Shown here: piece after piece, positions 11,080 to 24,587 of the stretch
Layout of the letters: each line of letters starts with the position of its first letter
Position numbering within the stretch: the stretch's first letter is position 1
Virus genome (UHGV): UHGV-0173695
Length of the DNA stretch: 24,637 nucleotides
From: a virus
Direction: 5' to 3' (one strand)
Notes under the pieces: generated by a model
What the model was told of the DNA's origin: nothing
Seen by the model: only the letters and a program-made list of their open reading frames with translations
The model's database searches: none
Made by a program: the position numbers and the translations under genes

Positions 11080-12125
11080 TGAGCAGAAAAAATAAAAAAG
11101 TGCGCATGAGTTCACGCATTGATCTCGCTGATGCGCTCAGGAAAGAATCGTCGCTCAGTGCATTCACATTTGATGGTCCTTATCGCCTGACCGGGCATGA
11201 TTTGCTGGACAATATGTACTGTGCTGATAACGGGCGGTGGTATGAAACCCCGGTGGACTGGTACGGTCTGGCAAGAGCTGCCCGGCAAACGTCCTGGCAT
11301 CAGTCTGCGCTTTACTTTAAGCGCAATGTATTGCTCGGTTGCTATATTCCGCACCCGCTGCTTTCCCGGCAGGATTTCTCGGCGCTGGCGCTGGACTGGT
11401 TTGTGTTCGGTAACGCATTCCTTGAGCTTCGAAGCAATATGCTCGGCGAACCGCTTAAATTACGGCACGCCCTGGCGAAATACATGCGACGCGGAAGCGA
11501 TCTTGAATCATGGTGGTATGTGCAGGATGGCAAGGACGCGTTTCAGTTTCGCCCTGGCAAAGTGTGCCACCTGATGAATCCGGATATTAACCAGGAAATC
11601 TACGGCATGCCGGAATATCTCGGCGCATTACTCTCGGCCAGCCTGTCTCATTCGGCGGACATGTTCAGAAAACTGTATTACGACAACGGATCCCACGCCG
11701 GGTGCATCATCTACATCGGTGCAGCGCAGGTAAACCGCGAAAGCATGGACTCCCTGAAAGAAACGTTACAGGGTGCGCGTGGTGGTGGTGCATTTAAAAA
11801 CGTGCTCATTCATGCGCCCAACGGTGGCAAAGAAGGTGTGCAAATTTTGCCGTTCCAGCAGATCACAGCAAAGGATGAGTTCATGAATGTTAAGGCGGCA
11901 TCCCGTGATGATGTGCTGGCTGCGCACCGCGTTCCGCCGCAACTGATGGGGGCGATGCCGGGTGAAAAAAGTGCGTTTGGTGATGTGGAGAAGGCCGCGC
12001 GGGTTTACGCAATTAACGAGCTGATGCCCGTCATGGAGGCCATGAAGCACATCAATGACTGGCTTGGCGAAGAGGTGATCCGCTTTAACCCTTACGCACT
12101 GTTAGATACCCAGCCCACATCCTGA
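11079..12125 (+). CDS. Q: Portal protein Q
   Basis: 348 aa, size as P2 gpQ; immediately follows P; followed by a hairpin and the non-coding cos-proximal region. Confidence 0.9.
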   Translation: MSRKNKKVRMSSRIDLADALRKESSLSAFTFDGPYRLTGHDLLDNMYCADNGRWYETPVDWYGLARAARQTSWHQSALYFKRNVLLGCYIPHPLLSRQDFSALALDWFVFGNAFLELRSNMLGEPLKLRHALAKYMRRGSDLESWWYVQDGKDAFQFRPGKVCHLMNPDINQEIYGMPEYLGALLSASLSHSADMFRKLYYDNGSHAGCIIYIGAAQVNRESMDSLKETLQGARGGGAFKNVLIHAPNGGKEGVQILPFQQITAKDEFMNVKAASRDDVLAAHRVPPQLMGAMPGEKSAFGDVEKAARVYAINELMPVMEAMKHINDWLGEEVIRFNPYALLDTQPTS

Positions 12126-12872: not shown

Positions 12873-13160
12873 TCAGCGTGGATAAATTAACTTGAATTTG
12901 AGGAAGTTTTGTTTAATCCAGTCTTTAACATTTTCCCTTCCCTGAATACCTGATGGTAAGTGTTCGTGAATCATCCATTCGACAATGAGTTTCTCTTTCA
13001 GGGAGTATGCCTTAAAGGAATTAAGCATATTTAGTACTTCATAACCCTCTTTGCGGCTAAACCGATGGCGGTCAGCAGCGGTTTTCGTGGGATCATCTCC
13101 TGGCAAAGCAGTCCAACTGTAATCGTCATAAAATAAATCGCTTCTTTTAATATCGGTCAT
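12873..13160 (-). CDS. Hypothetical protein, 95 aa, AT-rich; cargo gene at the tin/old position
   Basis: Complete ORF; weak Shine-Dalgarno (AAGGA) upstream; a stem-loop (CCACCTC...GAGGTGG) lies in the 66-bp gap from the upstream gene; no family recognised. Confidence 0.45.
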   Translation of the reverse strand: MTDIKRSDLFYDDYSWTALPGDDPTKTAADRHRFSRKEGYEVLNMLNSFKAYSLKEKLIVEWMIHEHLPSGIQGRENVKDWIKQNFLKFKLIYPR

Positions 13161-13226
13161 TTGATTATCCTTTTCAGAAGAACCACCTCTCCAACTATTG
13201 TTGAGGTGGTGAAAAAGCAGAAATCG

Positions 13227-13505
13227 TTATGCAGCTTTGAGCAGTGCGCTGCTCATTGCATAGTCGTACCCAAGCATGTATGCCTCAAAGGCGTCTTTAT
13301 GTCTGACTGTGCCAGCCTGGCTATATGGAATATTTGCCAGGAAGGAATCATCTTTAGCTTTAGGAATACCGATCATTGCGTGAAGTACACCAAGCTCGTA
13401 TGCGCAGGCAGCGCAGCGGTGGCGGCCTGTCTGTCCCTGGTTATCGGGAAGGTGTGAGTATTGGGGGTTGTATCGGTGGGAGTTTTTACAAATCTTTATA
13501 CCCAT
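13227..13505 (-). CDS. Hypothetical protein, 92 aa; cargo gene at the tin/old position
   Basis: Complete ORF with GAGGT about 9 nt upstream of the ATG; no family recognised; the overlapping plus-strand ORFs look less protein-like. Confidence 0.45.
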   Translation of the reverse strand: MGIKICKNSHRYNPQYSHLPDNQGQTGRHRCAACAYELGVLHAMIGIPKAKDDSFLANIPYSQAGTVRHKDAFEAYMLGYDYAMSSALLKAA

Positions 13506-13611
13506 ATTTGATTTACCTCAATAAAATGAGGTGTTCACCTTTACATGGGCACACGCAGAAAATACGATTCCGGCGAGCTCAAGAGGTAGATGACACCTCG
13601 ATTTCTTTGGC

Positions 13612-13642
13612 GCCCCAATAGTTACCGCTATTGGGGCGTTTT
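13612..13642 (+). terminator. Rho-independent terminator-like hairpin (plus strand)
   Basis: Perfect 10-bp stem GCCCCAATAG / CTATTGGGGC with loop ttaccg, followed by GTTTT. Confidence 0.5.
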
Positions 13643-13784
13643 CCTATGCATGACACACAAACAAAGTGGTCATATCGTGATCGATCCTACAAAATCCCAT
13701 ACAACTGTCAAGGGTATTGATCGTTTTAATCGATAGATAAATCAATATCTATCTGTTTAACAGATCGATTATTAGGGTAAACAT

Positions 13785-13807
13785 GAAAAAACACCCGTGA
13801 AGGGTGT
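13785..13807 (-). terminator. Rho-independent terminator downstream of the parR-like gene (minus strand)
   Basis: Minus-strand hairpin ACACCC-ttca-CGGGTGT followed by a T-run (plus strand AAAAAACACCCGTGAAGGGTGT), 8 bp after the ParR stop. Confidence 0.55.
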
Positions 13808-13814
13808 TTGTAGG

Positions 13815-14129
13815 TTATTCTGGGAAAAACTCCTGAATGTTCCTTTTTAACTGGCTCTTACTGTGACTGTTTTCTGTTGCAGATGTGCCAGTATGCTTGT
13901 TTCGGATGTTATTTCTTGGTGGTATTGCTTCCTCTTCCTGCCATTCAGCCAGCCAGTAAGCAAAGGCGGGATCGCTTTTAATAAGCGCCAGTCCAGCCAG
14001 AAATGCCGCGCGTTGCGCGCGGCTGCGTTCGGAGGCTGGCAGGCTGTCGAGATAATTACACGCTTCTCGTTCACTCTTGACGGCTGCTGGCTTCAGATAG
14101 AAACTTATCCGTCTGGTTGGAGTCGTCAT
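13815..14129 (-). CDS. parR: ParR-like centromere-binding protein (ribbon-helix-helix, type II partition)
   Basis: Internal start MTTPTRRISFYLKP...NYLDSLPASERSRAQRAAFLAGLALIKSDP closely resembles plasmid R1 ParR as I recall it; AGGAG Shine-Dalgarno 7 nt upstream; start 5 bp after the ParM stop. Track ORF 13815..14264 has an N-terminal extension overlapping parM. Confidence 0.75.
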   Translation of the reverse strand: MTTPTRRISFYLKPAAVKSEREACNYLDSLPASERSRAQRAAFLAGLALIKSDPAFAYWLAEWQEEEAIPPRNNIRNKHTGTSATENSHSKSQLKRNIQEFFPE

Positions 14130-14133
14130 TGGT

Positions 14134-15093
14134 TTACTCCTTGTCCATTGCGTACAGCCCATTAACCAGAGCAAACTGTGGCACCCCGTCCGCGATGAAA
14201 GTCGCATTAACTCCGCAGGCTTCGCGGATAGCGGGTGCCACAATCTCCGCCCCGCCACCGACAACCATCACCCGCCCGTAACCCGAAAACCCCGCCAGCG
14301 CGCGGATCACTCGTTGTTTCAGTGTTTCTTCCTTTTCACGAATAACCGCCATCAGGCTGGCGTAATGCGCGTCATTGTGGATGTGCTGGCGCAACCAGGC
14401 TTCATCATGGCGATGTTCGATAATGGTATTGGCGATGTGGTGACTGGTGCGCATACCGTTAGTGGCCATCACCGACAGTACGGCATCGGCCATCAGAGAA
14501 ACGCCTACGTGTGGATCGCAAAACACCTGGCTGATACCTGCCAGTTGCCCCTGAACCTTTGCCACATCCAGCGTGGTTCCGCCCAAATCCACAATCAGCA
14601 GGGATTCAAACGGACTCATGTCAGCCAGTGCCTTAAAGCCAGCCGGAATGGATTCAGGCATAACCCGCACGTTACGGATAGTGAATGCTTCGCCGTTCTG
14701 GTACTCCACCGGGCGCATAACGTTCGCTTTTTTGCGGTTGATGTTGGCCATGTCCGGCTGTGCGTTTGTGTCGAAATATTCGCTCAGTGGCAGGGTGACA
14801 ACCACATCCACTTCCTGTGGTGTGATGCCTGATTTGACCAGCGCGTGATGAATGGCAATGACATTCACATCGCTGTACTGGTATTGCGTGTCGGTCGTCT
14901 GGACAAAGCGATCGCTGACCGGATCAAAACCATAGCGCACGCCATCAAGCATGTAGTTCGCGGGCTGCGTGCCACCGAACGGCGCAGACCATTCCGACTT
15001 GAAGCTGTTTGGGCTGATGGCGTTGCGGCGTTCGCCGTTCTCAGTCCATGCCAGCTTGATGTTGGTGGAGCCGTCATCGATACAAATTTTCAT
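14134..15093 (-). CDS. parM: ParM/StbA-family actin-like ATPase (type II partition motor)
   Basis: 319 aa; N-terminus MKICIDDGSTNIKLAW (R1 ParM begins MLVFIDDGSTNIKLQW as I recall); further matches ISPNSFK, YSDVNVIAIHHAL, DLGGTTLD, VMVVGGGAE. Confidence 0.9.
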   Translation of the reverse strand: MKICIDDGSTNIKLAWTENGERRNAISPNSFKSEWSAPFGGTQPANYMLDGVRYGFDPVSDRFVQTTDTQYQYSDVNVIAIHHALVKSGITPQEVDVVVTLPLSEYFDTNAQPDMANINRKKANVMRPVEYQNGEAFTIRNVRVMPESIPAGFKALADMSPFESLLIVDLGGTTLDVAKVQGQLAGISQVFCDPHVGVSLMADAVLSVMATNGMRTSHHIANTIIEHRHDEAWLRQHIHNDAHYASLMAVIREKEETLKQRVIRALAGFSGYGRVMVVGGGAEIVAPAIREACGVNATFIADGVPQFALVNGLYAMDKE

Positions 15094-15120
15094 GTCGCTT
15101 TTCCTTATGTTGATTAATTA

Positions 15121-15240
15121 ATCGTTTACGGGATTCTGAAATCCCGTTTTTGCCTGTTTTATGCGCGCTTCATATATCGCGGCGCGTTTTTTGCTCATTT
15201 ACGGGATTTGTGAATCCCGTTTCTGTCTGTTTTTTGTTTC
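15121..15240. repeat. parC-like region: two imperfect direct repeats of about 36 bp, each with the palindrome ACGGGATT-N4-AATCCCGT, upstream of parM
   Basis: Palindromes at 15128-15147 and 15201-15220, 73 bp apart, each followed by a T-rich tail (TTTTTGCCTGTTTT / TTTCTGTCTGTTTT). The first lies between the A stop and the parM start; the second lies within the last codons of A. Confidence 0.5.
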
Positions 15241-17992
15241 CACTGGTCAGGCCACCCCGCAGCAGGTCTGCTTTGCGGCGGGCGCGTTCAGTGGTTTCAC
15301 TGATTCTCTGTGCGTGCTCTGCGTCGCGGATGGCGCGCAGCATGTCAGAAAGCACGGTAACGGGTGTTTTCATGGTGTTCTGGTCTTGCTGAAGTGTGGA
15401 TGCCAGGCGTGCGGCGGCTTCGGGGTCTGATGTCCCCAGCTGTTCCAGATAGCTGGCGACCGGGTTATGGCGGATCTCCGTACTGCTTACGCCGTGGTTA
15501 CGGCTCAGGCGCTGCCAGAGCTGCGTGATCCGGCTGTCCGGTCGGGTATCCGGTTTGCGTACAATTTCAAATCCCTGCGGTGCAATGTTGCTGCCGTCAA
15601 CGTACAGACTGCCGCCCCGTAACAGGTGCTGCATCTGCTGTTCACCGATATGCAGGCCGAGAGATTCAGCAGACTCCCGCCATTCTTTAGCGAGTAGTTC
15701 GTGGTTATCAGGCAAAGGCCGCTGCTGTTTGCGGCTCTGTGTCCAGCTCTGCATTTCATCACGGCTGTTTTTTGCCTGTTTGTCACGAAGCGAACGCATC
15801 AGCGCCCGGCGTTCGTGCCGTTTCAGTGAGCGCATCCATTCGTTCACTTCAACGCCGTCAGGGAGCTGCGGCCACGGTGCTGGCCGTTCTTCCGGCTGTT
15901 CTGTCCCGTTGTTGTCCGTTTCCTGTACACGGGGACAGTTATTGCCACGAGTCCAAGGGGCGGCAGGGCCGCCCTGAAGGTCAAAACCATTTTCGTGGGC
16001 GTTGTCTTCTGGTTCTGGTTTACGTCTTACCAACTTCCAGTTATCCGGATGCGTGCACACACGGGAGGATTCCCCGATGAGTGGTGACCAGATCCCGTAA
16101 ATCTGTACGCTCTGTTCGCCGTAATCGTTCAGCTCATCTGCGAGGTCGTAGGCGGTGCGAATCAGGTAGTCCTTGCGTGGAACAAGCACGCCACCCTGTT
16201 TTTCAATGTAGGTGGCAAAACACCCGGCATCGGCGGCAGCGAGTACCGCATCCATTGCATCATCTTTCAGCCGTTGCGGGCCTTCCGGATTGCGTGCCAT
16301 CTGGCTGGCAAGGCGGCGCAGTTCACGCCACACCTGACGGGAGGGGATGCCAAAGAACTGGAACTGACGGACCCGGTGAAGGCGCGCCCAGCCGATGGCG
16401 CGCTCCACGCTCTCGGCCATTGATTTTCCGGTTTCGTGGTCAACGCGTGGCTTGCCCGTTTTCGGGTCGATGCCATCCACGGCGCGGCTGTCCAGGTTCT
16501 TTCCGATGTAGGTAGCGATGTAGCTGGTTGGTGTGCCTTTTGAGCCGTCGACATACTCCGCCTTAAAACGCGGAGTTATGTCATCGCCCAGCTCGTGGCG
16601 GTCCTCCTGAATGGCAATATCGCAGACGTGGGACACGATGGTTTCAATCTCGTCCGGATGTGCAAAGACCATCATATGCCAGTGCACAGTGCCGTCATGG
16701 TGAGGCTCCACCGTGCGGATGCCATACCAGCGCAGGCCGTCGCGGTTCAGTTTTTTGCGGACCGCCGCAAAAAACGTGTTAACCAGGTAATCGCTGGAGT
16801 CGCGCATGGTGGCCCCGTTCCATTTGGGGTTCGGATGACCGTTCTCCGTTGTTGCGTGGTATTTTGACGGGCAGGTGACGGTCAGAAACACCGCTCTGTC
16901 GCCACGGGCTTCGGCCAGAAGTTCCAGTCCCTTCATGGTGGCCATCATTTCTGCCTTACGGTGAACCGGGTTACTTACTCCCGCGTAATACACCGTCTCG
17001 AGATCAATCGTGAACCCGTCTTCATTTTCCAGCGTGAAACTTTTCAGGAAATCGCGTGTTTTCTCGCGCTGTGCGCGAAACTCGCTTAACGCGTCCTGGC
17101 TCAGATAGGGCGATGTTTTTCTGGAAACCAGACAGGCGGCGCGGAGTTGTTCTTCCCGCCACTCGCAACGTAACAGCCACAGTTTGCGTTTCCACCATTC
17201 CGCACAGGTCAGGCGAAGGATTGCGCCCGGCAGCAGCTCCGTGTCTGGTTCGTTCCTCCGGTCTTTGTCTGTTGTCAGTGCGTCATAATGTGGAGGCATG
17301 GCGTGCAGGTGTAACGCCATGCGGGCCAGCATCTGATACGCCTTCAGCGTTACATCCATGGTCAGCTCGCCATCGGTCGCGCCAAAGCCATCGCAGAGTT
17401 TTTCGAAGGTGCTGCTGAACATCGCCGCCGTCATGGTGGCCAGCGTCTGTATCTGGTGTTTGTTGAGCTGCGGCAGGTAAAGCAAATCGTCCAGGCGTTC
17501 GCGTCCGGCAAGGGAGCGATAACCCGGTGTCAGCCAGCGGTGATCGGTGCGGTCCAGACGTTCGAATATTTTGCGCAGGGTTCCGCGTGCATAGCGTTCC
17601 GCCTGCCAGCTCTTTTTGCCTTTCCGGCGATCGGCTTCCTGTTTTTTGCGCAGGAAGGAGAGGTGGCGAATAAGCGGATCGCGCAGATAGGACGGCAGCA
17701 GGCGCAGCGAGGCCATGGCTTCATCCACTGCGCCGCGTGCCTGTTTTCTGGCGTCTCCTGCCAGTGTGATGGTTTTGTCCTGTTTTTCCTGTGCGTCCAG
17801 GCTTTTATTAATCAGGTTGCCCAGCGGCGTGGCGGAGAACGCCGCATCAGCCATTTCCTTGCGGCGCTCGTTCTCTGCCCGGTAGGCATCCAGCCAGGAG
17901 GAAAGCGCGGATTCAGGAGCGGGGATCCCCGTTCCTTCACGCCCCACTGCGTGGCGCGGTTGTTGCCAGTCCCTGATGTACTCTGCCGTCAT
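15170..17992 (-). CDS. A: Replication initiation protein A (rolling-circle endonuclease), P2 gpA family
   Basis: 940 aa; contains HWHMMVFAH and TSYIATYIGKNLD (HUH-type and catalytic-Tyr motifs of gpA-like initiators). Longer than the roughly 761 aa recalled for P2 gpA. Confidence 0.9.
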   Translation of the reverse strand: MTAEYIRDWQQPRHAVGREGTGIPAPESALSSWLDAYRAENERRKEMADAAFSATPLGNLINKSLDAQEKQDKTITLAGDARKQARGAVDEAMASLRLLPSYLRDPLIRHLSFLRKKQEADRRKGKKSWQAERYARGTLRKIFERLDRTDHRWLTPGYRSLAGRERLDDLLYLPQLNKHQIQTLATMTAAMFSSTFEKLCDGFGATDGELTMDVTLKAYQMLARMALHLHAMPPHYDALTTDKDRRNEPDTELLPGAILRLTCAEWWKRKLWLLRCEWREEQLRAACLVSRKTSPYLSQDALSEFRAQREKTRDFLKSFTLENEDGFTIDLETVYYAGVSNPVHRKAEMMATMKGLELLAEARGDRAVFLTVTCPSKYHATTENGHPNPKWNGATMRDSSDYLVNTFFAAVRKKLNRDGLRWYGIRTVEPHHDGTVHWHMMVFAHPDEIETIVSHVCDIAIQEDRHELGDDITPRFKAEYVDGSKGTPTSYIATYIGKNLDSRAVDGIDPKTGKPRVDHETGKSMAESVERAIGWARLHRVRQFQFFGIPSRQVWRELRRLASQMARNPEGPQRLKDDAMDAVLAAADAGCFATYIEKQGGVLVPRKDYLIRTAYDLADELNDYGEQSVQIYGIWSPLIGESSRVCTHPDNWKLVRRKPEPEDNAHENGFDLQGGPAAPWTRGNNCPRVQETDNNGTEQPEERPAPWPQLPDGVEVNEWMRSLKRHERRALMRSLRDKQAKNSRDEMQSWTQSRKQQRPLPDNHELLAKEWRESAESLGLHIGEQQMQHLLRGGSLYVDGSNIAPQGFEIVRKPDTRPDSRITQLWQRLSRNHGVSSTEIRHNPVASYLEQLGTSDPEAAARLASTLQQDQNTMKTPVTVLSDMLRAIRDAEHAQRISETTERARRKADLLRGGLTSGNKKQTETGFTNPVNEQKTRRDI

Positions 17993-23183: not shown

Positions 23184-23525
23184 ATGGTGAACATGTCAAG
23201 AGATTACGCCAAAAAACTAAAGGCGATCAGAAATGCGGAAAAACTTACACAATCTCAGTTTTCGCAAGTAACGGGGGTTTCTGTAGGGACTATAGGAAAT
23301 TATGAGTCTGGATATAAACCTGCGCGCATTGAGGTTGTAGAAAAAGTAATCCAAGTCGAGCGATTCGAAAAATACACTATGTGGATACTTCACGACAAAA
23401 CATTTCCCGCTGCCGGGCAGGTTGCTCCGGCTCTCTCTCTTGATGGCTCTATTCAGTCGGAGGGCGATCAGGTTTCAATCGGTATTACCCAAAAATCACC
23501 CCGATCAGGCCGCAATGTTGGCTGA
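23184..23525 (+). CDS. C: Immunity repressor, P2 C-type
   Basis: 113 aa; KLKAIRNAEKLTQSQFSQVTGVSVGTIGNYESG...FEKYTMWIL...GQVAPAL parallels P2 C as I recall it. Start could be 23184 or the in-frame ATG at 23193. Confidence 0.85.
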   Translation: MVNMSRDYAKKLKAIRNAEKLTQSQFSQVTGVSVGTIGNYESGYKPARIEVVEKVIQVERFEKYTMWILHDKTFPAAGQVAPALSLDGSIQSEGDQVSIGITQKSPRSGRNVG

Positions 23526-23594: not shown

Positions 23595-24587
23595 ATGTCG
23601 ATTAAGCAACTCAAAGACGGACGTTATCAGGTCGATGTCAGACCGCAGGGGGCGGAAGGAAAGCGGATTCGAAAAATCTTTGCCCTGAAATCAAAGGCTC
23701 AGGAGTTTGAGAAGTATGTGTTACAGAACTTTCATGACAAGCCATGGCAGGCTAAGCCAGCTGATCAGCGGCGATTATCAGAGCTGCTTGATGCGTGGTG
23801 GATGCTTGATGGGCGTAATCAGGCTTACGGGGATAGCTACAGGGTTAGGCTAGGGAAGGTTGTTCGTGAAATGGGAGATCCTCGCGCCAGTCAGATGACG
23901 CGAAAATTTATGCTTGAATATCGGTCAGAGAAATTACAGGCCGGATTAATGCCGTCCAGTATTAATCGTGACTTATGCGTACTGTCTACCATGTTCACGG
24001 TGCTGATTGAAGCTGAGGTCTTTCACAACGCGAACCCTGTACGCGGTATACGAAAACTGAAAGTTCAGAACACAGAGATGGCCTTTCTTTCTGATGATGA
24101 GATTGAACGGCTTCTTGAGCGACTGGAGGGTGATGCGCGTCGTGTTGCCATTCTGTGTCTTTCTACTGGTGCCCGATGGAGTGAAGCATCGGAACTACGT
24201 GGAGAGCATATCGTTGGCAACCGGGTGACGTTCTTTAACACCAAAAACGGAAAATCCCGTTCGGTTCCTGTGGCGGATTCGGTCGTGCCTCTGATTAAAA
24301 CCCGTCGAACGGGGTTATTGTATCAGGTTGATTATCTGAAGTTCCGGGAGATTCTTCAGGAGGTGAAACCGGATTTGCCGAAGGGGCAGGCTACGCATGT
24401 CATGCGTCATACATTTGCCACACACTTTATGATGAATGGCGGAAATATTGTTACGTTGCAACGAATCCTGGGGCACGCAACGATTCAGCAAACAATGACG
24501 TACGCTCATTTTTCGCCGGACTTCTTACAGGACGCGATCAACTTTAATCCGCTGGCTGAAAGTGTCCATAAACTGTCCATCGATTAG
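23595..24587 (+). CDS. int: Tyrosine integrase (P2 Int family)
   Basis: 330 aa; C-terminal catalytic region HVMRHTFATHFMMNGGNIVTLQRILGHATIQQTMTYAHF (R-H-x-x-R...Y); located after C and at the prophage edge as in P2. Confidence 0.95.
   Translation: MSIKQLKDGRYQVDVRPQGAEGKRIRKIFALKSKAQEFEKYVLQNFHDKPWQAKPADQRRLSELLDAWWMLDGRNQAYGDSYRVRLGKVVREMGDPRASQMTRKFMLEYRSEKLQAGLMPSSINRDLCVLSTMFTVLIEAEVFHNANPVRGIRKLKVQNTEMAFLSDDEIERLLERLEGDARRVAILCLSTGARWSEASELRGEHIVGNRVTFFNTKNGKSRSVPVADSVVPLIKTRRTGLLYQVDYLKFREILQEVKPDLPKGQATHVMRHTFATHFMMNGGNIVTLQRILGHATIQQTMTYAHFSPDFLQDAINFNPLAESVHKLSID

What the first reader, a model, noticed from the sequence alone, without database searches (positions are those of the whole stretch)
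13815..15240. ParM/ParR-like type II partition cassette with parC-like repeats inside a P2-like prophage, at the tin/old cargo position
A 319-aa actin-like ATPase with the ParM/StbA N-terminus (MKICIDDGSTNIKLAW) is followed 5 bp later by a ParR-like protein, and preceded by two ~36-bp repeats each carrying the palindrome ACGGGATT-N4-AATCCCGT. This sits between replication gene A and the cos region, where P2 carries tin and old and where P2-like phages are known to carry variable cargo, often anti-phage systems. A plasmid segregation module in an integrating phage is unexpected. It could mean an episomal (phage-plasmid) stage, a stabilisation function, or an actin-like filament system used for something other than partition.
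Basis: partly seen in the sequence, partly recalled or inferred. Interest (0 to 1): 0.8.

Follow-up and report, generated by a model that had tools for sequence, protein, structure and literature searches.

The report
Actin-type partition cassette in P88-like prophage
A plasmid-style DNA-segregation gene pair (ParM/ParR with two palindromic sites) really does sit next to the replication gene of this integrated P2-like prophage. It is a fixed, already annotated and already published feature of the common phage P88 lineage, and its function has never been tested.

Summary
parM (14134-15093, minus strand) encodes a full-length actin-like ATPase 46.7% identical to plasmid R1 ParM. parR (13815-14129, minus strand) is a PF10784/StbB-family adaptor. 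Two 42-nt repeats, each with an 8-N4-8 palindrome, lie just upstream.

It is not new. ParM is 100% identical to that of phage P88. The cassette occurs in 1304 of 5426 complete E. coli genomes and is annotated as ParM/partitioning protein. Pfeifer 2021 and Rousset 2022 both flagged it with the same "may be maintained as plasmid" speculation.

What I add:
- The cassette is not swappable cargo. It is strictly linked to the P88-type gene A, and the variable defence hotspot (IetAS, PDC-M11A and others) begins downstream of parR.
- parM is under strong purifying selection (dN/dS 0.05) and intact in 84 of 85 loci.
- ParR keeps an invariant N-terminus and C-terminal tail around a hypervariable linker.
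- I found no convincing promoter or terminator between A and parM.
- 1442 of 1444 E. coli copies are chromosomal.

Best reading: a working ParMRC module at the end of the early replication operon. It would act on extrachromosomal phage circles after infection or induction, as srpMRC does in SXT/R391 or AlpAC in CGP3. It is not a stable phage-plasmid lifestyle. Function remains untested.

The parts
15195..15236 (.). Distal parC-like repeat (42 nt) with palindrome ACGGGATT-TGTG-AATCCCGT at 15201-15220. It lies inside the last codons of gene A.
   Evidence: repeat family D1, inverted repeat I1. The palindrome core is conserved across 84 related loci with only single-sided point changes.
15122..15163 (.). 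Proximal parC-like repeat (42 nt) with palindrome ACGGGATT-CTGA-AATCCCGT at 15128-15147. It ends 34 nt upstream of the parM ATG.
   Evidence: Spacing to the distal copy is 73 bp, about 7 helical turns.
14134..15093 (-). parM: a 319-aa actin-like ATPase of the ParM/StbA family.
   Evidence: Pfam StbA_N 1.8e-82 plus ParM C-terminal domain 1.3e-68. PDB 1mwk (R1 ParM) E 9e-93 over the full length, with IDDGSTNIKL, MPESIPAG, DLGGTTLD and GGGAE identical. Identity to R1 ParM is 46.7%. 100% identical to phage P88 ParM. dN/dS 0.051 over 67 haplotypes; intact in 84 of 85 loci.
13815..14129 (-). parR: a 104-aa StbB/ParR-family adaptor. It has a conserved N-terminus (MTTPTRRISFYLKP), a helical core, a hypervariable linker (about residues 66-95) and a conserved C-terminal tail (NIxxxFPE).
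   Evidence: PF10784 3.7e-26. PDB 2jd3 (pB171 ParR/StbB) E 0.002. 41% identity over 61 aa to the ParR of an IncFII plasmid. Conservation pattern in 64 homologues. AF2 secondary structure: H20-29, H32-52, H54-61, disordered 62-85, H86-101.
13789..13809 (-). Intrinsic terminator-like hairpin with a T-run immediately after parR. It marks the end of the A-parM-parR transcription unit.
   Evidence: 8-bp stem, followed by TTTTCATGTTT.
15170..17992 (-). Gene A (940 aa, rolling-circle replication endonuclease). This is the replicon to which parMR is physically and evolutionarily linked.
   Evidence: Pfam Phage_GPA 2.6e-129. It is co-oriented with parM, 76 nt upstream, with no minus-strand terminator in between. 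The same 14 phage records carry this A allele and parMR.
12873..13711 (-). The variable hotspot cargo of this particular prophage; not part of the partition module. It holds a promoter-like site at 13711->13684, a 92-aa ORF at 13227-13505 and a 95-aa ORF at 12873-13160.
   Evidence: Promoter-like site scoring 10/12. PHROGs 3941 and 33929, function unknown, with no Pfam or PADLOC hits. GC is about 40-43% against 53-58% for parM. This region differs among loci.

Best explanation
This is a functional type II (ParMRC-like) DNA partition module that belongs to the replication module of the P88-like lineage of P2-like phages.

Proposed mechanism:
1. ParR, as ribbon-helix-helix dimers of dimers, binds the two 20-bp palindromes at the 3' end of gene A (inferred).
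2. Its conserved C-terminal helix captures the ends of ATP-dependent ParM filaments (inferred from R1 ParMRC).
3. The growing filaments push apart or spread extrachromosomal circular phage genomes.

parM and parR lie co-oriented at the very end of the early, gene-A-containing operon. There is no terminator upstream of them and no convincing promoter of their own. I therefore infer that they are made when that operon is on, that is after infection or after derepression and excision, and not in the quiescent integrated prophage.

The benefit would be one or both of the following:
- Even distribution of the monomeric circles made by gene A rolling-circle replication, for efficient replication and packaging, as with AlpAC of prophage CGP3.
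- Inheritance of not-yet-integrated or excised copies by both daughter cells, as with srpMRC of SXT/R391 ICEs.

Shown here: gene identities, conserved motifs, purifying selection, linkage to gene A, the repeats and their conservation, operon geometry, chromosomal location.
Inferred: ParR-palindrome binding, filament formation, timing of expression, and the benefit.
For: - Family membership of both proteins.
- All ParM nucleotide-binding motifs are identical to R1 ParM.
- parM dN/dS is 0.051, against 0.102 for a gene A segment. parM is intact in 84 of 85 loci.
- The parts of ParR expected to read DNA (invariant R6 R7 I8 F10 Y11 L12 K13) and to bind ParM (NIxxxFPE on a predicted C-terminal helix) are conserved, while the linker varies freely.
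- The two palindromes are conserved in all related loci.
- The order parC-parM-parR matches R1.
- parM sits 76 nt after gene A on the same strand. There is no minus-strand terminator between them, the best promoter match there is only 7/12, and a strong terminator follows parR.
- Strict co-occurrence with the P88-type A allele.
- parM has core-like GC, with the compositional break inside parR.
- The one parM pseudogene seen is in a prophage whose capsid genes are also truncated.
- Precedents for actin-type partition in integrating elements: srpMRC, whose srpC has four 13-bp repeats and whose expression is tied to the excision regulon, and AlpAC.
Against: - There are no expression data. A weak promoter between the palindromes (TGAGCA-17-TATGAA, 7/12) cannot be excluded, so expression in lysogens is possible.
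- There are only two palindromic sites, unlike the ten direct iterons of R1 parC (own knowledge). Binding by ParR is untested.
- The RHH fold was not recovered by structure prediction (pLDDT 64.7, no Foldseek hit).
- A short lytic cycle leaves little time for cell division, so the advantage of 'partition' proper is unclear.
- No experiment on this cassette was found in the searchable literature.
Confidence: 0.58

Rival explanations
1. Facultative phage-plasmid: the cassette lets P88-like prophages be stably maintained as low-copy plasmids as an alternative to integration. This is the speculation of Pfeifer 2021, Rousset 2022 and the first reader.
For: - A complete partition module sits next to the replicon.
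- One PLSDB record (NZ_CP148288.1, 34,461 bp, circular) is a whole P88-like genome deposited as a plasmid.
- A P2-like phage that is a true plasmid prophage exists: KS14.
Against: - 1442 of 1444 copies in 5426 complete E. coli genomes are chromosomal.
- The window and related records keep a tyrosine integrase and a P2-type repressor-int arrangement.
- The replicon is the rolling-circle gene A. In P2 it is repressed in lysogens (own knowledge).
- KS14 instead has RepB and ParA and lacks gene A.
- The single circular record breaks at or near the att core (the junction query splits at position 432 of 900, 19 nt before the record's end). This is what an assembled excision product would look like.
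Confidence: 0.1
2. Lysogen-expressed accessory function: ParR/ParM made from the integrated prophage act on other DNA. Examples are partition incompatibility or exclusion against incoming P88-like phages or satellites carrying the same palindromes, or some host-benefit role, in line with the neighbouring defence hotspot.
For: - The position is adjacent to the gpA-gpQ defence hotspot.
- ParR is unusually diverse: 89 clusters at 48-94% identity, and dN/dS 0.32 for codons 1-65. This could reflect conflict.
- A weak promoter candidate lies between the palindromes.
Against: - There is no PADLOC hit.
- The module is invariant rather than swappable.
- The DNA-reading N-terminus and the C-terminal tail of ParR are invariant, so specificity does not diversify. 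The diversity sits in the linker and tracks the downstream cargo and the GC break, consistent with hitch-hiking on hotspot recombination.
- There is no strong promoter of its own, unlike the cargo unit, which has a 10/12 site.
- The palindrome occurs nowhere else in the window.
Confidence: 0.12
3. The two palindromes are not a centromere. They are RNA or DNA hairpins, for example plus-strand terminators that protect gene A from antisense transcription, or elements in the mRNA. ParR would then bind elsewhere or nowhere.
For: - Both palindromes score as terminator-like on the plus strand, with an 8-bp stem followed by a T-rich tail that is part of the 42-nt repeat.
- There are only two copies.
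Against: - No plus-strand gene runs into this region.
- On the sense (minus) strand the hairpins are followed by A-runs, so they are not terminators for the A-parM transcript.
- All natural variants are single-sided transitions with no compensatory pair, half of them compatible with each strand. There is no covariation support for an RNA structure.
- Position and geometry fit a ParR operator pair: immediately upstream of parM, 7 helical turns apart, with 20-bp dyad symmetry that suits an RHH tetramer. srpC similarly has four half-sites.
Confidence: 0.12
4. Decaying remnant of a plasmid-derived insertion with no current function.
For: One E. coli prophage copy has an internal stop in parM.
Against: - dN/dS for parM is 0.051, and parM is intact in 84 of 85 loci.
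- All catalytic motifs are kept.
- The cassette is present in 24% of complete E. coli genomes at 90-99% identity.
- The pseudogene copy sits in a prophage that is itself degraded.
Confidence: 0.03

Closest known systems
parMR cassette of Escherichia phage P88 and other Xuanwuvirus (P88-like Peduoviridae), and Citrobacter phage phiSM
   Same: ParM is 100% identical to P88 ParM, and the DNA is 95-98% identical. The gene order A-parM-parR is the same. These genes are annotated as 'plasmid segregation protein ParM' and 'plasmid partitioning/stability family protein'. PHROGs 691 and 2515 are 'partition protein'. The cassette was noted by Pfeifer 2021 and Rousset 2022.
   Different: The 3' half of parR and the downstream cargo are a different allele from P88: homology to P88 stops at about parR codon 22. 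Otherwise nothing differs. This is the same element.
ParMRC (parA locus / stbAB) of plasmids R1/NR1 and par2 of pB171
   Same: ParM is 46.7% identical to R1 ParM over its full length, with identical nucleotide-binding motifs. ParR belongs to the same Pfam family as StbB and matches pB171 ParR. The order repeats-parM-parR is the same.
   Different: It resides in an integrating rolling-circle phage, not a theta-replicating low-copy plasmid. The putative centromere is two 20-bp palindromes 73 bp apart, rather than ten 11-bp direct iterons flanking a promoter (R1; own knowledge). No convincing promoter of its own was found. The nearest plasmid ParM is only about 53% identical, so this is a separate clade. 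An IncFII homologue has AT-rich direct repeats upstream, not these palindromes.
srpMRC of SXT/R391 integrative conjugative elements (Carraro et al. 2015, PMC4489591)
   Same: [quoted passage not shown] It acts on the excised, rolling-circle-replicating form, and its expression is tied to the excision/transfer regulon.
   Different: SrpM and SrpR are only distantly related to R1 ParM and ParR according to that paper, whereas the phage proteins are close R1/StbAB homologues. The element is an ICE, not a phage. srpMRC has experimental support and this cassette has none.
AlpAC of Corynebacterium glutamicum prophage CGP3 (Donovan et al. 2015, PMC4446434)
   Same: It is an actin-like protein plus adaptor encoded by an integrated prophage. 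The adaptor binds sites upstream of the operon, the genes are induced early after excision, and they are needed for efficient phage DNA replication.
   Different: The host phylum and actin-like family are different. The gene order is alpA-alpC. Homology was not tested here.
Phage-plasmids with partition systems (P1-like D6 with StbA; P2-like KS14 with ParA)
   Same: These are phages carrying plasmid partition genes. D6 StbA is 47.8% identical to this ParM. KS14 has P2-like virion genes.
   Different: They are maintained as plasmids, with plasmid-type replication initiators and no need for integration. This element is integrated, with integrase and gene A.

Membership tests
Type II (ParMRC) partition system | Actin-like ATPase of the ParM/StbA family with intact nucleotide-binding motifs | tested here: met
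   Pfam StbA_N 1.8e-82 and ParM C-terminal domain 1.3e-68. R1 ParM structure 1mwk E 9e-93 over residues 2-316, with the phosphate-1, E148, phosphate-2 and adenosine motifs identical. Identity is 46.7%.
Type II (ParMRC) partition system | Small ParR adaptor gene immediately downstream of parM, co-transcribed | tested here: met
   A 104-aa ORF starts 4 nt after the parM stop and has its own Shine-Dalgarno sequence. PF10784 Plasmid_stab_B 3.7e-26. 41% identity to the ParR of an IncFII plasmid.
Type II (ParMRC) partition system | ParR N-terminal ribbon-helix-helix DNA-binding fold | tested here: inconclusive
   There is a sequence match to pB171 ParR (2jd3), E 0.002 for the single sequence and 0.009 for the profile. 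AF2 with 64 homologues gave pLDDT 64.7, with three helices and an unstructured N-terminus in the monomer. Foldseek against the PDB found nothing. The invariant N-terminal RRISFYLKP is compatible with the RHH strand.
Type II (ParMRC) partition system | ParR C-terminal peptide that binds ParM filament ends | not testable with these tools
   The C-terminal NIxxxFPE on a predicted helix (residues 86-101) is conserved behind a hypervariable linker. The interaction itself was not modelled.
Type II (ParMRC) partition system | parC centromere: array of ParR-binding repeats upstream of parM that also contains the autoregulated promoter | tested here: inconclusive
   Two conserved 20-bp palindromes within 42-nt direct repeats lie directly upstream of parM. 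There are only two sites, and no convincing sigma-70 promoter lies between them (best 7/12). Binding is untested.
Type II (ParMRC) partition system | Carried by, and stabilising, a low-copy extrachromosomal replicon | tested here: not met
   The location is an integrated prophage with integrase. 1442 of 1444 E. coli copies are chromosomal. Stabilisation activity is not testable here.
Phage-plasmid | Prophage maintained extrachromosomally | tested here: not met
   A single 34.5-kb circular record exists.
Phage-plasmid | Plasmid-type replication initiator; integrase dispensable or absent | tested here: not met
   The replication gene is Phage_GPA, a rolling-circle endonuclease, and a tyrosine integrase is present. 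For contrast, KS14 has RepB and ParA.
P2 gpA-gpQ hotspot anti-phage cargo (tin/old-like) | Similarity to a known or candidate defence family | tested here: not met
   PADLOC gives no hit for ParM, ParR or the two small ORFs. Cargo downstream of parR in other loci does hit IetAS and PDC-M11A.
P2 gpA-gpQ hotspot anti-phage cargo (tin/old-like) | Variable presence among otherwise closely related phages | tested here: not met
   The same 14 phage records carry this A allele and parMR. parM is at least 98% identical at protein level in all 83 fetched related loci, while the next 900 nt fall into 24 clusters.
Actin-type partition of integrating elements (srpMRC/AlpAC-like; functional analogy, not homology) | Expression coupled to the excision/replication programme rather than to the integrated state | tested here: inconclusive
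   Operon geometry only. The cassette is co-oriented with gene A, has no intervening terminator and no strong promoter, and is followed by a terminator after parR. There are no transcript data.

The most novel reading that the evidence does not exclude
The cassette is an integral part of the P88-type rolling-circle replication module. It is expressed only with the early operon and builds actin-like filaments that position or spread the monomeric phage circles during lytic growth or during establishment of lysogeny. That would make it a cytoskeletal DNA-positioning system of a common integrating Gram-negative phage, not a plasmid-maintenance device. Because about a quarter of E. coli genomes carry it, it would be a widespread and experimentally tractable case.
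Probability: 0.35. Interest if true: 0.55.

Novelty: already known. Interest (0 to 1): 0.3.

Why it matters
The cassette occurs in about a quarter of complete E. coli genomes and of P2-like phages, yet nobody has tested what a plasmid segregation machine does in an integrating rolling-circle phage.

If it positions or partitions phage circles, it would extend actin-based DNA handling from plasmids, ICEs and one actinobacterial prophage to a major family of enterobacterial phages. It would also clarify whether these phages have a transient episomal phase.

For annotation and defence-island mining there is a practical point. parMR marks the fixed A-proximal border of the P2 hotspot. The swappable defence cargo starts inside or after parR, so parMR should not be counted as cargo or as a candidate defence system.

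Tried and rejected
- **Single-sequence AF2 of ParR.** pLDDT was 52.7, which is uninformative. With 64 homologues pLDDT was 64.7. Foldseek against the PDB returned only noise, so the RHH fold could not be confirmed structurally.
- **NCBIfam.** Only sub-threshold hits were found: PRK13917 ParM at 19 bits against a cut-off of 417, and PRTRC_D. It adds nothing beyond Pfam.
- **PADLOC on ParM, ParR and the two small ORFs.** No hits, so the defence-system idea was dropped.
- **Promoter search between A and parM.** The strict scan found none on the minus strand. The relaxed scan found at best 7/12. The question is unresolved.
- **RNA-hairpin reading of the palindromes.** Natural variants are single-sided transitions with no compensatory pairs. 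The sequences are too closely related for a covariation test, so I did not pursue it further.
- **P2 cos 19-mer recalled from memory.** There was no match within 3 mismatches, so cos was not located.
- **attP-junction search from the 34.5-kb circular record against E. coli genomes.** None of 442 genomes had an intact junction. The test is blind to circular records that start at the junction, and 10 places were on plasmids, so it is only weak evidence.
- **Genome-contig scan.** It returned only 3 loci (E. albertii, Salmonella, and a probably mislabelled 'Vagococcus'). This showed a narrow host range but added little.
- **Literature searches for experiments on this cassette.** Several queries returned only author-name noise ('Parma', 'Parmley'), and no functional study was found.
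Full report
**1. Observation**

The region reads as the first-stage reader described.
- On the minus strand, a 319-aa ORF at 14134-15093 begins MKICIDDGSTNIKLAW.
- It is followed, 4 nt after its stop codon, by a 104-aa ORF at 13815-14129 with its own AAGGAG ribosome-binding site.
- Upstream are two 42-nt direct repeats (15122-15163 and 15195-15236, 81% identical, 73 bp apart). Each contains a perfect ACGGGATT-N4-AATCCCGT palindrome.
- The pattern occurs nowhere else in the 24.6-kb window even with three mismatches. The chance expectation is 0.10.
- Gene A (Pfam Phage_GPA, 2.6e-129) occupies 15170-17992 on the same strand, so the distal repeat lies in its last codons.
- The portal gene ends at 12125. 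A tyrosine integrase (23595-24587) and an HTH repressor (23184-23525) lie at the right end.

**2. Identity of the proteins**

*ParM*
- It matches Pfam StbA_N (1.8e-82) and the ParM C-terminal domain (1.3e-68), and PHROG 691 'partition protein'.
- Against solved structures it aligns end to end with plasmid R1 ParM (1mwk, E 9e-93; 46.7% identity).
- The IDDGSTNIKL, MPESIPAG, DLGGTTLD and GGGAE nucleotide-binding segments are identical.

*ParR*
- It matches PF10784 (Plasmid_stab_B, 3.7e-26) and PHROG 2515.
- It matches the one solved relative, pB171 ParR/StbB (2jd3, E 0.002).
- It is 41% identical over its first 61 residues to the ParR of an IncFII plasmid.
- Structure prediction did not confirm the ribbon-helix-helix fold. 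The single-sequence model had pLDDT 52.7 and the model with 64 homologues had 64.7. It showed three helices, a disordered 62-85 segment and a C-terminal helix at 86-101. The N-terminal 19 residues were unstructured, as might be expected for a monomer model of an obligate dimer. Foldseek found nothing.

**3. It is already known**

- The DNA is 95-98% identical to Escherichia phage P88, other Xuanwuvirus records and Citrobacter phage phiSM. ParM is 100% identical to that of P88.
- The cassette is present in 1304 of 5426 complete E. coli genomes. PGAP annotates it as 'plasmid segregation protein ParM | plasmid partitioning/stability family protein | replication endonuclease'.
- Pfeifer et al. [quoted passage not shown]
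- Rousset et al. [quoted passage not shown]
- I found no experimental study of the cassette in the searchable library.

**4. Core module, not cargo**

- Using gene A as the query, exactly the same 14 phage records that carry parMR carry this A allele. All other P2-like phages match only a roughly 50-nt patch.
- In 83 related loci from IMG/VR and genomes, ParM is at least 98% identical and 319 aa long in 84 of 85 cases.
- The distance from parR to the portal gene varies from 950 to more than 3678 nt.
- The first 900 nt downstream of parR fall into 24 unrelated clusters.
- That downstream cargo includes the known IetAS defence system and the candidate PDC-M11A. ParM and ParR have no PADLOC match.
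- Some loci even have a different portal/terminase set.
- GC content is 53-58% across parM, like gene A. It falls to about 40-43% from roughly 13950 downwards, that is inside parR.

So parMR marks the fixed, A-proximal edge of the hotspot, and the recombination boundary runs through parR.

**5. Evidence that it is functional**

- Pairwise Nei-Gojobori estimates give dN/dS 0.051 for parM (67 haplotypes), 0.102 for a 300-codon segment of gene A, and 0.32 for parR codons 1-65.
- ParR homologues form 89 clusters at 48-94% identity.
- Their alignment shows an invariant N-terminus (R6 R7 I8 F10 Y11 L12 K13) and a near-invariant helix (QRxAFLAGLAL).
- It also shows a hypervariable linker (about residues 66-95) and a conserved C-terminal NIxxxFPE.
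- This is the pattern expected of an adaptor that reads DNA with its N-terminus and holds ParM with its C-terminal tail. It also indicates that DNA specificity does not diversify.
- The palindrome cores are conserved in all loci. Variants are single-sided transitions without compensatory changes.
- The only parM pseudogene seen lies in a prophage whose capsid and scaffold genes are also truncated.

**6. When is it expressed?**

- All genes from the promoter-like site at 23199-23170 (TTGACA-18-TATCCT, facing the repressor gene) down to parR are on the minus strand.
- parM starts 76 nt after the stop codon of gene A.
- No minus-strand terminator lies between them. The palindromes are followed by A-runs on the sense strand.
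- The strict promoter scan found nothing there, and a relaxed scan found at best 7/12 (TGAGCA-17-TATGAA, between the palindromes).
- A strong terminator follows parR at 13809-13789.
- By contrast, the cargo unit further downstream has a 10/12 promoter-like site at 13711-13684, next to a 24-nt inverted repeat.

I infer, but have not shown, that parMR is the tail of the early, replication operon. It would therefore be made after infection or derepression, not in the quiescent lysogen.

**7. Episomal lifestyle?**

- Of 1444 places in complete E. coli genomes, 1442 are chromosomal.
- PLSDB holds seven records. Most are very large replicons with an integrated copy. One is a 34,461-bp circular record that is the whole phage genome including integrase.
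- Its junction with the rest of the record coincides with the point where integrated copies break (query position 432 of 900, 19 nt before the record's end). This is what an assembled excision product would look like.
- None of 442 genomes with this integrase type showed an intact junction. The test is blind to records that begin at the junction.
- The replicon is the rolling-circle gene A, not a plasmid initiator.
- KS14, the one P2-like phage shown to be a plasmid prophage, instead carries RepB and ParA and lacks gene A (PMC3091744).

A stable phage-plasmid state is therefore poorly supported.

**8. Most likely mechanism and precedents**

The best-supported reading is a working ParMRC-type machine attached to the A/ori replication module. 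ParR would bind the two palindromes, which are 7 helical turns apart, and recruit ParM filaments. The filaments would then move extrachromosomal phage circles.

Two published systems do this in integrating elements.
[quoted passage not shown] It is expressed only from the excision/transfer regulon and stabilises the excised, rolling-circle-replicating form (PMC4489591).
- AlpAC of prophage CGP3 is induced early and is needed for efficient phage DNA replication (PMC4446434).

P2-type replication produces monomeric circles that are the packaging substrate (own knowledge). Spreading such circles during lytic growth, or distributing unintegrated copies to both daughters during establishment, are therefore the two plausible benefits. 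I cannot separate them.

Rivals, in descending order:
- a lysogen-expressed exclusion or incompatibility function;
- palindromes that are hairpins rather than a centromere;
- a stable plasmid state;
- a dead remnant, effectively excluded by the selection data.

**9. Verdict**

The finding is real and correctly identified, but it is already annotated and already discussed in the literature with the same interpretation. This analysis adds five points:
- the cassette is a conserved part of the P88-type replication module rather than hotspot cargo;
- it is under strong purifying selection;
- ParR shows the conservation pattern of a functional adaptor;
- the cassette appears to be transcribed with the early operon;
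- genome data argue against a stable plasmid lifestyle.

Interest is modest. It would rise if experiments showed actin-based positioning of phage DNA.

Noticed in passing
window 15927-15976 (inside gene A): This is the only stretch of the P88-type gene A that megablast finds in other P2-like phages (Klebsiella, Salmonella Fels-2/SEN8, Yersinia; 82-91% identity over about 46-50 nt). Such an island of nucleotide conservation may be the cis-acting origin or nick site. It lies about 0.75 kb from the parC-like palindromes.
   Followed up: no
window about 13815-14062 (3' two-thirds of parR) and related loci L004-L086: The mosaic boundary of the hotspot runs through parR. Homology to P88 stops at about codon 22 and to other phages at about codon 63. 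ParR allele types largely track the downstream cargo cluster, and GC drops from about 55% to about 41% inside parR. ParR is far more diverse (89 clusters at 90% identity) than ParM (at least 95%).
   Followed up: partly
L071 and L066, downstream of parR: The cargo immediately after parR in other P88-like phages includes the IetAS defence system (734 aa + 360 aa; PADLOC E 6.6e-41 and 3.6e-89) and the candidate PDC-M11A (E 3.6e-131). A 198-aa protein in L039 and a 174-aa protein seen in L023 and L038, among other loci, have no match.
   Followed up: partly
window 12873-13769: The cargo unit of this prophage has a promoter-like site, TTGACA-16-TAGGAT, at 13711->13684 (minus strand). It sits next to a 24-nt imperfect inverted repeat (13716-13739 / 13746-13769) that could be an operator. 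Two small ORFs follow: 92 aa at 13227-13505 and 95 aa at 12873-13160. They match PHROGs 3941 and 33929 (function unknown) and have no Pfam or PADLOC hits.
   Followed up: no
L017, L036, L064, L084, downstream of parR: These parMR-bearing loci carry a different portal (344 aa) and terminase (506 aa in L017, L064 and L084; only a 318-aa part was seen in L036) from the window (348-aa portal). The A-parMR module therefore recombines independently of the head genes.
   Followed up: no
L001 (NZ_CP128926.1, best E. coli match to the window): In this prophage parM has an internal stop and the major capsid and scaffold genes are truncated. parM decays together with the phage, not independently.
   Followed up: no
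L002 (NZ_CP148288.1, 34,461 bp, circular, deposited as an E. coli plasmid): This is a complete P88-like genome with integrase, Cox-type switch and parMR, recorded as a non-mobilizable plasmid. The record starts within about 20 nt of the point where integrated copies break. I could not decide whether it is a true episome or an assembled excision product.
   Followed up: partly
L085 (NZ_JBQPOM010000071.1, labelled Vagococcus sp.): A 226-kb contig labelled as a Firmicute carries this enterobacterial prophage cassette at 98% protein identity. This is probably contamination or mislabelling of the assembly.
   Followed up: no
window 15170-15900 (C-terminal about 240 codons of gene A): Gene A here encodes 940 aa, much longer than the P2 and 186 A proteins as I remember them (own knowledge, not checked). 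The Pfam GPA domain covers only residues 179-503. The reading frame runs into the distal parC-like repeat.
   Followed up: no
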